A program made the position numbers and the translations under genes. The notes under the pieces are model-generated. The model had not been told where the DNA came from. It did not search any database and saw only the letters and a program-made list of their open reading frames with translations. Below, piece after piece: positions 515 through 62,598 of a stretch of DNA of 64,000 bases (positions are counted from its first letter, which is position 1; every line of letters starts with the position of its first letter). Source of the stretch: Octopus vulgaris (lineage: Eukaryota); contig OX597826.1 in assembly GCA_951406725.2 (NCBI GenBank), positions 51,708,001-51,772,000 on the forward strand. Reading direction: 5' to 3'.

Positions 515-790
515 TGCTATATTTCGGAATGGTCATTTTGCCAGTTTAGCCAATAAAAACACACGCACTATATATTTGATGTTACTTTGCTTCAGTGTTA
601 TTTATTTTTTACATTAATCTTAATCTTATTTCGGCCAGAGATCTTTCGTCACACTCCTGTAACCGCATCAGTGGTCCTTTGTTTTCTTCTTTCTTATTTG
701 TGTCTCCCCTTACTAACCGTTATTGGCTAAACTGGCAAATTGACCATTCCGAAATATAACAATATCTGTTTCACATAAAAAAATCTTGCA
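515..790 (-). mobile_element. Short PLE-derived element with ~45-bp inverted arms and a hammerhead-like motif, between (TA)n tracts
   Basis: tatttcggaatggtcattttgccagtttagccaataa (~520-556) is inverted at ~720-756 with one mismatch. (TA)n lies on both sides. Confidence 0.65.
633..677 (-). ncRNA. Minimal type I hammerhead ribozyme, variant core
   Basis: Minus strand reads ggacca CUGAUGC g guuaca-ggag-ugugac GAAA GAUC UC uggcc. It has a 6-bp stem II and palindromic stem III (AGAUCU). The core deviates from CUGANGA. Confidence 0.55.
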
Positions 791-2235
791 CAACAAATAT
801 ATAAACGTATACATATATATATATATATATATATATATATATATATATATATATATATATCTCAATTAGATATTGATATTAATAACTGTGGTGCATATAT
901 AATATCGTAGCTATGACGAGCTTCTTTAGCGTAATTTGTACATCAACTCACCTATGAGTAGTATTTGTATTAAACGTAACAGGGTCGGTTGAAACAAGGT
1001 GACAAAACAATAAATGAATAGCATTTATCTAATCAATATCGTTATCTTTCTCAATAAATATGGTTTAACGTAGTATATTCAGGTGTGGTCATGTTAATTG
1101 TTATTTAAAAGTTATTAACTTCTGACAGTTAGATTACAAATATGTATAATATGACGTTGCTATGTGGACAGGAAAATTATCAACTGCAAACAAAAAAACA
1201 AAAAGTAAAAATAAGAGTAAAAACTTACAACCTAATGGAATTAGGCGTTTTTATGTGGTTGCACAGTATCTGAGGGTGTGGTCGGAAATGAACTTTTGCA
1301 AATTAAGCTAATTTTTTTTCTTGGTTTATATTTTATGTAATATTTTAGAATAGTCTCATGAAGGGATGGCGTTATCTAAGAATGTACTGGTTCAATACCT
1401 AATATATTTTGGGGTGGTTAATATCCATAAAATAACAACGGGTTTATATATCATATGAGGATATGTACGTATGTACTTGTAATTTCATGTAAATAATTGT
1501 GAATGTCCCTGTGTGTCTGTACATATATATATATATATATATATATATATATATATATATATATATATATATATATATAAATATATATATATATATATAT
1601 GTATATATGTATATATATATACATATATATGTACATGTGTTTATGTATATATGTGTATGTATCTATCTATCTATATATATATATATATTTATAAATACAT
1701 ACATATATATATATATATGTACATGTGTATATATTTTTATATGTATGTGTGTATATATCTATATATACTGAATCTACAGATGAATGTATGATCGCGTGAT
1801 TGCAAATATATGTGTAATTTTATATATAGATGTGTTTTTCTCAGTTTTTATATATAAAATACAAATATAATTGAATTCCTCACCTCATTCATATTGTAGT
1901 TTATTCACATTTAATTTAATCTACAATCTCTATTTACTTACTCTTCGTTACCCTAATTATATTTGCATACTATATCTTACGCATAACAAACCTGTTTCCC
2001 CATCACCTAGACATATACGATTACTAATCAAAAACAGTATTATTCAGGCTGCCGTGATGTTTCAAATAACTAACACATAAAATATCGAAGGGTATATTCT
2101 TACTCCTCTGGAGTGATTTAGCTCAGAAATATGACTAGTATTTTAAAAATTTCGCTAAGCTCAATTGAAACAGCTTTAAGGGATAATGATCGATTTTTTG
2201 CTGAAAATAAACCCTTAACTTTAATATCCCCATTT

Positions 2236-2500
2236 CTTCTTCTTCTTCTTCTTCTTCTTCTTCTTCTTCTTCTTCTTCTTCTTCTTCTTCTTCTTCTTCT
2301 TCTTCTTCTTCTTCTTCTTCTTCTTCTTCTTCTTCTTCTTCTCTCTCTCTCTCTCTCTCTCTCTCTCTCTCTCTATCTCTCTCTTTATATATATATATAT
2401 ATATGATCAACTGCATGTATATATGTATATAAATATATATATATATATATATATATATATATATATATATATATATATATATATATATATATATATATAT
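2236..2500. repeat. Compound microsatellite (CTT)n-(CT)n-(TA)n
   Basis: Directly visible; the source of the poly-L and poly-E ORFs. Confidence 0.95.
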
Positions 2501-2990
2501 AAGTAGTTGAATGAATTATCTTAGTATGGATAATTCGGTTAACCGATACTTGGGTAGCAAATTCACGTCAGAAAAACACGGTTGAAGCTACATGCCAAGG
2601 GCAGAGATCACGTGCTTTCGTGTGGAAATTTGTGTGTTTTTTTAATACAAATAAATGAAAGAATGGATTTGAACGACGATTTAACAAAATTCCTTTATTC
2701 TCGACATATGTTTCGAAGGCTGCATATTCCTAATTTCGAAGGAATAAGGGGTGCATTATGCCGCCTTCTCATCAGGAAAAACAAGGAACTTATGTCAGCA
2801 TCAAGATGAACAAAAACTCTTAGATGACTGCCCACACGGAGCCCATAGCGATAATGAGTGTTTCTTTAAAATATTCCGTTATAAGCAGTGACGTAAAAAA
2901 TGGTTGGTTGAATGTAGAAGATTCTAGAAAGTTCAAGGGTTCAAACAAGGTTGGCGGAGAGAGGTCTAAGAATAGGAAGGTGACAGGGTG
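2501..2990 (-). mobile_element. Hammerhead-containing PLE/retrozyme-like element abutting (TA)n
   Basis: Begins immediately after (TA)n and contains the intact hammerhead at 2688-2790. The right boundary is approximate. Confidence 0.55.
2688..2790 (-). ncRNA. Type I hammerhead ribozyme (intact core)
   Basis: Minus strand reads aguuccuuguuuuuc CUGAUGA gaaggc...gccuuc GAAA CAUAUG UC gagaauaaaggaauu. Stem I has 13 pairs with a 2x2 internal loop, stem III is the palindrome ACAUAUGU, and the triplet is GUC. Predicted cut between 2703 and 2702. Confidence 0.85.
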
Positions 2991-59985: not shown

Positions 59986-60769
59986 TGTGATAAGAAAAAT
60001 AAAATACATATTTTCGTTCGCGTGTATTATTTGACGAAACGAGAAAAATTCCACAAAATAGCTATTTATTTTGTTTTACTTACCATATTTGTGTGGACAA
60101 AAGACGCATGTTTTACCAATAAGATGCTTCAAAGAAATCACCTCGGGTTCTCTATGCATAGCTATACCCCATAAGCTTTAATGCACTAAAAACCTTTTTC
60201 CCTGAATATGCGCTGCTGAAATTCGAGTGCGATGTATATGCCCGTGTGTCTTTTATACTATGAATTAAGTTAATTATTGCGGATGTTGAAATATTTTTAT
60301 GAAAATATTCAAATATTTCCCTACGCTATTTCTCTACTCACACTTTAAGTATTTATTGAAATGATATTCCGATATTTTTTAAATCGAACATGCCTTCTAA
60401 CTCTTTTAGTATTTTCTCTAATTCTGTTTGCGCTGAATTTGTGCATTTTGTTGTATCGCTTCTCTTCCTCATTTATCTTCTCTCATGGTTTCTATGTATG
60501 GAAGTCTTGACAACAGCGTGAAGGGATGGATAAAAATTAATGTTTGTTATGTATACCGAATAGAAAGTATTTTACACTAGATTTCAAATCATTTGTGCAG
60601 TAGGGAAAATCTCAAATGAATAAAAATAGGTTTAATAGAAAGAAAATACAATTGATGTTTTAAAAGTTTTATACGTACTAAAAGTTACCAAACTAAACAA
60701 TATTGGTAGTTCGAGGAATTAGAACAATAAACAAACTGATTTATACCTGGAATAACTGCAGACACTTGA

Positions 60770-60980
60770 GATGTGCGGCTTTAGGGTGTTGGACTCACGA
60801 TCATAAGATTGTAGTTTCGATTCCTGGACCGGGTGATTCGTTGTGATCATGAACAAAACACTTCATTTCACGTTGCGCCAATCCACTCAGCTGACCAAAA
60901 AAATGAGCATTCGTGCGATGGACCAGCGTTCCGTTCGCTGGAAGTATACATGCCAGAGAATCCAGAAAATCCGGAAAGGA
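60770..60980 (+). mobile_element. tRNA-derived SINE (second family)
   Basis: B box gtttcgattcc; later tccactcagctg and gcgatggaccagcgttccgt. Confidence 0.6.
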
Positions 60981-62040
60981 GCATTATCCTTTCTTTGGAG
61001 TTGAATTAAATTTTATTATCAAAAACATTGGGCATACCGACGTTCATTTCACGTGGCAGCAACAAAATGTAATGTTAAAAAAATATATATATATATGTCA
61101 AAAACGTTGCGCATATTAAAAAAAGAACACAAATTGATAGATATGCGTTTATATATGTATACACCGCCGTATATAGACCACCATCTATCTAGCTACACTT
61201 CTCCCTCACTATGTAAATAACATACATGCACATCTCTCTCTGTTTACCTATCTGTCAATCTATCTGTATTTGTAACTGAATATGATATTTGCAGACCCTT
61301 AATTTTGTTACGAAATAATGTACGTACCATTTATATATTTTTATTTTAAAGACAGAATAAAAATAAATTCCTTCTCTTACAAACCTTTCCACACAATTTT
61401 TACAATACTTATTATTTACAATACAATAATTTACAGAATCAAAAAGAATAAAAGGAAAATGATGAAACCAGTATTAAAGAATTTTATAAAAACTGATGCG
61501 AACATATTTTTAAAAAATTTCTAGTTCGTATAGTTCAAACGAAGATAAATTTATATTTTACCTGATATTTTATTTTCTATCATCAATATCAAGTGCATAT
61601 CGTGTTGTCTAATTTGCACTTTATACGTCCTTTAAGTTCCCAAGACAACGAATCAGAAATATTTATGATCTCTTTCTTCTTTTTATCCTTTAAAATTACC
61701 AAATATAGCATGAATCGTTCACCAAGCGGCAATGGACCTCCATTTAATGCACATATATTTGAGTGTATTTCCATGTATGGGTATGTACTTTTAGAGCGGG
61801 AGCCATTTATATTTACATGCTCTCAATCTTTCGCGCGCTCTCGTACCCACACACACACACATGACCACATGCACACATACATAGATTCTTATATATATAT
61901 GTATATATATATATATATATATATATGTGTGTGTGTGTGTGTGTATATATAGTATATATATATATATATATATATATATATATATATATATATATATATA
62001 TATATATATATATATATATATATATATATATATATATATA

Positions 62041-62598
62041 GAGGGCATTATTACACATACATGCCACACGCTAAGAGGGACAATTAGTCATTTCTACCAA
62101 AAAATTTTACTAATCATACCCAATGCAATTTTTCAAAGTAAGACATTTAAAAAATGAATTTAGTCTTGTATCACCTGTGATTTCGTACTTACCGCAGTTG
62201 CGACCGTACTCATCAGCAAGACTGATTCTGAACATATCATAAATAAACGACCCCGTACCGTCAAAGCCGAACAGCTATCTGCTCCACTTCAACGACGCAC
62301 ATGGGGAAGTTTACATATAATACATCCGGTAAATGGCAGGCTTCTTCGAATTGCATTTCGGGTAGGAAAAGTTTTTTCGGAATAAAATTATTTAACAATT
62401 AAGGATAACTTCTTAATAAGGGATCTTAACAAGAAATTATCAGGTAGATAGCGTGAAAAACCTCATAAGAGAAAAATTTCGAAAATAATTCTTTCTTATT
62501 GAACATATTAATTTATATATAGAGGGCATTATTACACATACATGCCACACGCTAAGAGGGACAATTAGTCATTTCTACCAAAAAATTGTTAAATAATT
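62041..62598 (-). mobile_element. 481-bp-period hammerhead element: one unit, 66-bp direct repeat and 15-bp inverted tail, in (TA)n
   Basis: 62041-62106 is identical to 62522-62587; 62584-62598 is the reverse complement of 62386-62400. (TA)n on both sides. Confidence 0.85.
62156..62228 (-). ncRNA. Type I hammerhead ribozyme (intact core)
   Basis: Minus strand reads agucuug CUGAUGA guac...guac GAAA UCAC-AG-GUGA UA caagacu. It has a 7-bp stem I and an AUA triplet. Predicted cut between 62169 and 62168. Confidence 0.88.

What the first reader, a model, noticed from the sequence alone, without database searches (positions are those of the whole stretch)
515..62598. Several unrelated elements share one architecture: (TA)n, hammerhead unit, partial repeat or inverted tail, (TA)n
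Seen: inserts at 515, 2501, 11520, 13363, 42668 and 62041 have no obvious sequence similarity. Each starts at a (TA)n junction and carries a minus-strand hammerhead ~110-340 nt inside. Four end in an inverted copy of their own sequence, and 7623 has the inversion without a ribozyme. Known: PLE insertions show tandem or inverted pLTRs. Inference: a diverse set of (TA)n-targeting PLE-dependent ribozyme elements populates this genome, and may help explain its (TA)n abundance.
Basis: partly seen in the sequence, partly recalled or inferred. Interest (0 to 1): 0.8.

Follow-up and report, generated by a model that had tools for sequence, protein, structure and literature searches.

The report
Penelope ends and ribozyme repeats
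These seven inserts in TA repeats are copies of seven jumping-RNA families of known kinds (four are cut-off ends of protein-coding Penelope-like retrotransposons, three are protein-free repeats carrying a predicted self-cutting RNA), and their shared two-ended layout suggests that one type of Penelope enzyme likely pastes them all in.

Summary
Observation confirmed; interpretation half right. All seven inserts sit at (TA)n and belong to separate multicopy families. Four (515, 2501, 11520, 13363) are not free ribozyme elements: other copies run on into reverse-transcriptase and C-terminal GIY-YIG frames, so they are 5'-truncated ends (pLTRs) of coding Penelope-like elements (PLEs). Three (7623, 42668, 62041) are tandem non-coding units of ~570, 493 and 481 nt, i.e. 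non-LTR retrozymes. Every family has two fixed ends about 55-145 nt apart. Of 86 two-armed insertions with both ends at fixed sites, 84 pair a long end with a short end. This is the PLE 'tail', explained in vitro by two internal RT start sites (PMC11167929). 242 of 277 fixed ends abut (TA)4, against 8% background. Target duplications of 10-17 bp show at 6 of 32 sites with impure flanks; that these elements explain the genome's TA abundance is not shown. No shared sequence linked the three retrozymes to a coding PLE. The scan reported this layout before for other retrozyme families of this genome.

The parts
511..801 (-). Family 515: two-armed fragment of a coding PLE's pLTR. Arm 511-722 starts at the short end; inverted arm 720-801 ends at the long end.
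   Evidence: RT and EN frames in copy L188
630..677 (-). Hammerhead-like motif with variant core CUGAUGC (core 665-671, GAAA near 643-650)
   Evidence: variant in 24 of 25 copies; span read from the sequence
2502..2991 (-). Family 2501: 5'-truncated 3' end (pLTR) of a coding PLE, long end at 2502
2703..2775 (-). Canonical minimal type I hammerhead, palindromic stem III
   Evidence: core intact in 25 of 25 copies
7623..7824 (+). Family 7623: two-armed fragment of a ~570-nt tandem unit; arm 7623-7683 (short end), arm 7670-7824 (long end); the unit's hammerhead-like motif is not in this copy
11519..12478 (-). Family 11520: old two-armed pLTR fragment of a coding PLE; arm 11519-12173, inverted arm 12182-12474 (82% identical)
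11600..11717 (-). Degenerate type I hammerhead (core 11703-11709, GAAA near 11646-11653, 9-bp stem II)
   Evidence: span read from the sequence
13364..13746 (-). Family 13363: 5'-truncated 3' end (pLTR) of a coding PLE, long end at 13364
13522..13600 (-). Type I hammerhead with one core change in this copy
42670..53072 (-). Family 42668: 21 head-to-tail 493-nt retrozyme units plus 51 nt, starting at the long end; 19 units pass the strict hammerhead descriptor (first at 42996-42906)
53071..53166 (+). Inverted arm of the array (unit positions 105-200), ending at the short end
62028..62597 (-). Family 62041: one 481-nt retrozyme unit (62042-62522) plus 65 nt, starting at the short end; 15-nt inverted arm 62583-62597 ending at the long end
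62169..62216 (-). Canonical type I hammerhead
   Evidence: canonical core in 29 of 30 copies

Best explanation
The seven inserts are copies of seven separate repeat families, four being truncated ends of coding Penelope-like elements and three being tandem non-coding hammerhead repeats, and all were likely written into (TA)n by the same kind of Penelope reaction. Inferred steps: the GIY-YIG endonuclease makes staggered nicks in AT-rich DNA. The two 3' ends prime reverse transcription at two fixed internal RNA sites, about 40-140 nt and 155-265 nt downstream of the hammerhead cut site, one site per DNA strand. The two cDNAs grow inward and join, often at short microhomology. This leaves back-to-back arms, a 'tail' on one end only and a short target duplication. 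If one arm is lost or very short, a plain 5'-truncated copy remains (2501, 13363). On tandem or circular retrozyme RNA each arm can run for many units (21 here). Shown: families, coding context, fixed ends, pairing, TA bias. Inferred: enzyme identity for the three non-coding families, order of nicks, nature of the template.
For: Coding context: RT and EN frames on the hammerhead's strand, upstream of it, in copies of 2501 (L181), 13363 (L186) and 515 (L188). Broken RT motifs and EN matches in copies of 11520 (L088/L191, L096/L193). In L080 the ORF's N-terminus begins about 55 nt past the long end, i.e. tandem pLTR-ORF order. Pairing: 84 long+short, 1 long+long, 1 short+short, 17 with one end elsewhere, among 103 two-armed loci of 184 examined; for the 493-nt family 31 long+short and 0 same+same. 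TA bias: 242 of 277 ends, against 2484 of 30343 background positions. Target duplications at 6 of 32 sites, against mean 1.5 and max 5 in 200 mismatched pairings. Four variants private to one insertion are fixed in both arms. Literature: two internal RT starts define the tail and both strands are cut and extended (PMC11167929); inverted 5'-truncated copies and a one-sided tail are typical of PLEs (PMC8557442).
Against: No shared sequence between the three tandem families and the 3' regions of 30 GIY-YIG loci or the four coding families. Pfam RT and GIY-YIG hits of the coding families are all below the curated cut-off (E 0.0008-0.07), and the L186 RT frame had no RT hit. Loci are the top-scoring hits, and the 515, 7623 and 11520 queries contained their inverted arm, which favours copies built like the window's. 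PMC11167929 saw no strand difference in RT start site in vitro. Family 515 is only moderately TA-bound (24 of 42 ends).
Confidence: 0.82

Rival explanations
1. All seven are non-coding, PLE-dependent ribozyme elements.
For: Within the window none shows coding sequence; three families are tandem non-coding units.
Against: Other copies of four families continue into RT/EN frames.
Confidence: 0.05
2. The three tandem families are hammerhead satellites that arose from pLTRs and spread by DNA-level duplication and fold-back at unstable (TA)n tracts, without RNA copying.
For: The window array holds a three-unit internal duplication (units 4-6 match 7-9), and 12 variants are mosaic within insertions. 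The Li 2026 preprint discusses local amplification.
Against: Near-identical short arrays are dispersed over many contigs. All begin at the same two positions as coding PLE tails do, 70 of 70 at TA. Both arms can be multimeric.
Confidence: 0.08
3. These elements build the genome's (TA)n tracts, by target duplication or telomerase-like TA addition.
For: Left plus right TA lengths have medians 57-65 nt, against a length-biased background median of 31 and mean of 37. Duplications of 10-17 bp are seen.
Against: Duplication covers only about half the excess; preference for long tracts explains it equally well. 30 of 42 long tracts in the window do not touch these seven inserts, though they were not all classified.
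Confidence: 0.15

Closest known systems
EN+ Penelope-like elements with C-terminal GIY-YIG (Neptune/Nematis types; PMC8557442, passages seen)
   Same: RT then EN, cysteine-rich linker in 515 and 13363, hammerhead in the pLTR, partial tandem and inverted 5'-truncated copies, tail on one end, microsatellite bias.
   Different: Tails here are about 55-145 nt, not 30-40 bp. Clade not placed by a tree.
Poseidon from Anolis carolinensis (PMC11167929, main text and methods read)
   Same: Two fixed internal start sites downstream of the hammerhead; AT-rich target.
   Different: There the sites lie inside the ORF and showed no strand preference in vitro. Here, in family 2501, they lie just before the ORF, and genomic copies pair one site with the other almost strictly.
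Metazoan non-LTR retrozymes (PMC7229834, passages and Discussion; bioRxiv 10.64898/2026.07.22.740005, parts 1-3 of 5)
   Same: Tandem non-coding units of a few hundred nt, each with a type I hammerhead; proposed PLE mobilisation.
   Different: In the parts read, neither paper describes insertion ends, inverted arms, tails or (TA)n targets. A sequence link to a pLTR, found in Xenopus, was not found here.

Membership tests
EN+ PLE (515, 2501, 11520, 13363) | PLE-type RT with C-terminal GIY-YIG endonuclease upstream of the pLTR | tested here: met
   Frames and motifs in other copies; Pfam hits only sub-threshold; many homologues carry PF26215, whose link to PLE RTs is recalled, not from a call; 11520 copies are broken
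EN+ PLE (515, 2501, 11520, 13363) | Partial tandem or inverted pLTRs with a one-sided tail | tested here: met
   26 long+short and 1 long+long among these four families; L186, L188; L080
EN+ PLE (515, 2501, 11520, 13363) | Type I hammerhead in the pLTR | tested here: inconclusive
   Canonical in 2501 and 13363, degenerate in 11520 (core pattern in 16 of 25), variant core in 515
EN+ PLE (515, 2501, 11520, 13363) | Placement in a named PLE clade by RT phylogeny | not tested
   No reference PLE set was fetched; clade names rest on the linker description in PMC8557442
Non-LTR retrozyme (42668, 62041, 7623) | Head-to-tail units of about 150-1000 nt | tested here: met
   493, 481 and 565-585 nt
Non-LTR retrozyme (42668, 62041, 7623) | Type I hammerhead in each unit | tested here: met
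   Met for 42668 and 62041; 7623's motif has both cores, a 6-bp stem I and a palindromic stem III but an A-A first pair in stem II, so it is doubtful (read by eye)
Non-LTR retrozyme (42668, 62041, 7623) | No protein coding | tested here: met
   tblastn with 7 PLE peptides hit 3 loci of these families; all three hits are neighbours beyond a TA tract
Non-LTR retrozyme (42668, 62041, 7623) | Self-cleavage and circular RNA | not testable with these tools
   Needs in vitro cleavage and RNase R or divergent RT-PCR
Non-LTR retrozyme (42668, 62041, 7623) | Sequence shared with an autonomous PLE pLTR | tested here: inconclusive
   None found in 30 of 150 scored GIY-YIG loci (6136 candidates) or the four coding families

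The most novel reading that the evidence does not exclude
PLE integration is obligatorily two-handed: an RT dimer primes each nicked DNA strand at a different fixed RNA site, 55-145 nt apart, and protein-free retrozymes with no sequence likeness to any PLE carry a structural mimic of this two-site signal, letting both arms roll round one RNA circle. The spacing would be set by RNA structure, and each event would add TA to the genome.
Probability: 0.4. Interest if true: 0.62.

Novelty: new member of a known kind. Interest (0 to 1): 0.4.

Why it matters
The elements are of known kinds. What this window adds is a side-by-side comparison: four coding PLE families and three non-coding retrozyme families follow the same long-end/short-end rule. 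That is genomic evidence for PLE mobilisation of animal retrozymes, which the papers read had inferred from co-occurrence and pLTR similarity. It also gives exact RNA positions and a very young family (units 99-100% identical) for an in vitro test of the still-open PLE integration mechanism. Practically, short hammerhead-plus-TA inserts cannot be called retrozymes without checking longer copies: four of seven here were PLE ends.

Tried and rejected
Rfam: no hammerhead hit; a custom descriptor was used instead. A Pfam family for PLE RT-associated domains was not in the genome-search library; GIY-YIG was used. An apparent endonuclease link for family 7623 (L168) proved to be a separate neighbour behind a TA tract; likewise L045 and L219. 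Expression: no RNA holder listed. Contigs of four runs only guessed to be RNA cover the 493-nt unit and show the head-to-tail joint, which genomic tandems also give; this is no evidence either way. An empty-site comparison in other read sets was not obtained, so TA gain per insertion is open. A pure monomer-circle template is not established: 22 variants are fixed within an insertion, 12 are mosaic and 75 are singletons in 92,457 bp of 37 insertions. L209 (apparent duplicate of L208) was dropped; L224 was also dropped; the window's own loci were dropped. RNAfold minimum-energy folds of the family majority sequences only partly recover the hammerhead stems. The one-mismatch descriptor hit at +27573 is treated as chance (2 such hits in 20 shuffles). 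A note entry gave the end spacing as 75-145 nt; the recount is about 55-145.

Full report
Setting. The window is G000:C13:51708001-51772000 of a 2.8-Gb assembly. It is 34% GC and rich in simple repeats. Proteins close to one of its retroelement RTs (70-83% identity over 15-36% of the query) are annotated from Octopus sinensis, so the host is an octopus by inference.

Observation. Each named insert follows a TA tract and carries a minus-strand hammerhead-type motif. A strict type I descriptor gave 21 hits, all on the minus strand, and 0 in 20 shuffles: 2775-2703, 62216-62169 and 19 of 21 array units. The other two units have a stem I change. The 13363 copy has a single core change, canonical in 23 of 25 relatives. 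11520 is degenerate. 515 has CUGAUGC in 24 of 25 copies. Stems I and II differ in sequence between families yet pair in each. Inverted arms exist at 515, 11520, 42668, 62041 and 7623. The families are unrelated by local alignment.

Families. Each insert retrieved 39-40 scored loci out of 356-3425 first-look candidates (candidates are not copy numbers). Identity to the best other copies is 99-100% for 42668, about 97% for 62041, 2501, 13363 and 515, 99% for the core of 7623 and about 80% for 11520. Longer copies settle what they are. 2501 continues, on the hammerhead's strand, into a GIY-YIG frame and then an RT frame (L181). 13363 continues into EN and a 537-aa RT frame (L186). 515 continues into EN and RT (L188). 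11520 copies hold broken RT motifs and EN matches related to the 2501 and 13363 proteins. Pfam support is weak, as all hits are below cut-off, but the domain order, motifs and pLTR layout match canonical PLEs (PMC8557442, passages). In L080 the ORF start follows about 55 nt after the long end. By contrast 42668, 62041 and 7623 are head-to-tail units of 493, 481 and 565-585 nt with no PLE coding sequence attached in any locus held.

Shared layout. Every family has two fixed ends. The offsets are about 55-60 (515), 95 (7623), 104 (42668), 105-110 (11520), 115 (13363), 125 (62041) and 143 nt (2501). Both lie downstream of the predicted hammerhead cut, so insertion ends are not the ribozyme cut site. 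Of 184 loci, 103 showed two outward-primed arms: 84 long+short, 1 long+long, 1 short+short, and 17 with one end elsewhere. For the 493-nt family, queried with the bare unit, one search gives 31 long+short and none same+same. Reading by eye, including two arms of 11-13 nt and one duplicate locus, gives 35 of 40. Both arms can hold several units. Four variants private to one insertion are fixed in both arms, so both arms come from one RNA source. Mosaic variants and a three-unit repeat in the window's array show that a single monomer circle is not the whole story. Caveat: loci are top hits, and three queries included their inverted arm.

Target. 242 of 277 fixed ends have (TA)4 within about 20 nt (70 of 70 for 42668, 24 of 42 for 515); random positions in the same loci score 2484 of 30343. 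At 6 of 32 two-armed sites with impure flanks a 10-17 bp direct duplication is visible (mismatched pairs: mean 1.5, max 5); most of the rest are pure TA at the junction and cannot tell. Summed flanking TA (medians 57-65 nt) exceeds the length-biased background (median 31, mean 37; 367 tracts). This fits duplication plus preference for long tracts; TA addition is not excluded. The seven inserts touch 12 of 42 long TA tracts of the window.

Mechanism. PMC11167929 (main text and methods read) showed that a purified PLE protein nicks and extends both strands of AT-rich DNA, is predicted to be a dimer, and starts reverse transcription at two internal RNA sites that define the genomic tail. The layout here is what that reaction would leave if each strand used a different site. 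I infer the same enzyme type for the three non-coding families from the layout alone. No shared pLTR sequence was found in 30 GIY-YIG loci or the four coding families. A candidate helper exists: a PLE family with many 781-aa open frames, some copies of which end at TA.

What is known. Tandem or inverted pLTRs, a one-sided 30-40 bp tail and (TA)n bias are described for PLEs (PMC8557442, passages). Non-LTR retrozymes and their proposed PLE mobilisation are described in PMC7229834 (passages and Discussion) and bioRxiv 10.64898/2026.07.22.740005 (parts 1-3 of 5). Seven searches listed no paper on cephalopod retrozymes or on paired ends of retrozyme insertions. The library lacks most subscription papers, and no supplements or Repbase entries were seen; these may already hold these families. 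Earlier agents of this scan reported the same two-armed layout for 359-495-nt retrozyme families elsewhere in this genome; I saw those notes after my own counts, and they are not independent support.

Verdict. A real and correctly spotted pattern, made of new members of two known kinds. The useful increment is the near-strict pairing rule shared by coding and non-coding families, with tails longer than reported.

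Noticed in passing
L241, L243, L246, L253 (GIY-YIG loci of G000): A PLE family with many 781-aa open frames. In L243 and L253 it ends at (TA)n after a hammerhead-like motif whose core reads UUGAUAA, i.e. the C3-G8 pair appears replaced by U-A. Candidate helper for the young retrozymes.
   Followed up: partly
window 630-677: Family 515 keeps a non-canonical hammerhead core (CUGAUGC plus one extra base) in 24 of 25 copies; activity unknown.
   Followed up: partly
window 53071-53166: The 96-nt inverted arm differs from the unit at 3 positions, far above the 0.08% singleton rate of the arrays; repair-linked mutation or assembly error.
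   Followed up: no
window 44155-47111: Array units 4-6 and 7-9 share the same variant pattern: a three-unit duplication or a trimeric template.
   Followed up: partly
window 6834-7172, 22882-23217, 36594-36925, 38987-39407, 59017-59411, 62863-63254: An abundant ~330-420-nt SINE-like repeat whose end runs into TA/TG repeats; several hammerhead elements elsewhere are inserted in such tails. A rival source of TA tracts.
   Followed up: no
window 30108-31498: Broken frames that look like the 3' part of a non-LTR retrotransposon RT, flanked by (AAT)n (identification recalled, not scanned).
   Followed up: no
L242 (reverse strand) 96-750: Two adjacent two-armed fragments, 70-76% like families 62041 and 7623, each between TA tracts: older subfamilies with the same layout.
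   Followed up: partly
L125 and L131; L208 and L209: Pairs of loci that appear to be segmental duplicates containing the same insertion.
   Followed up: no
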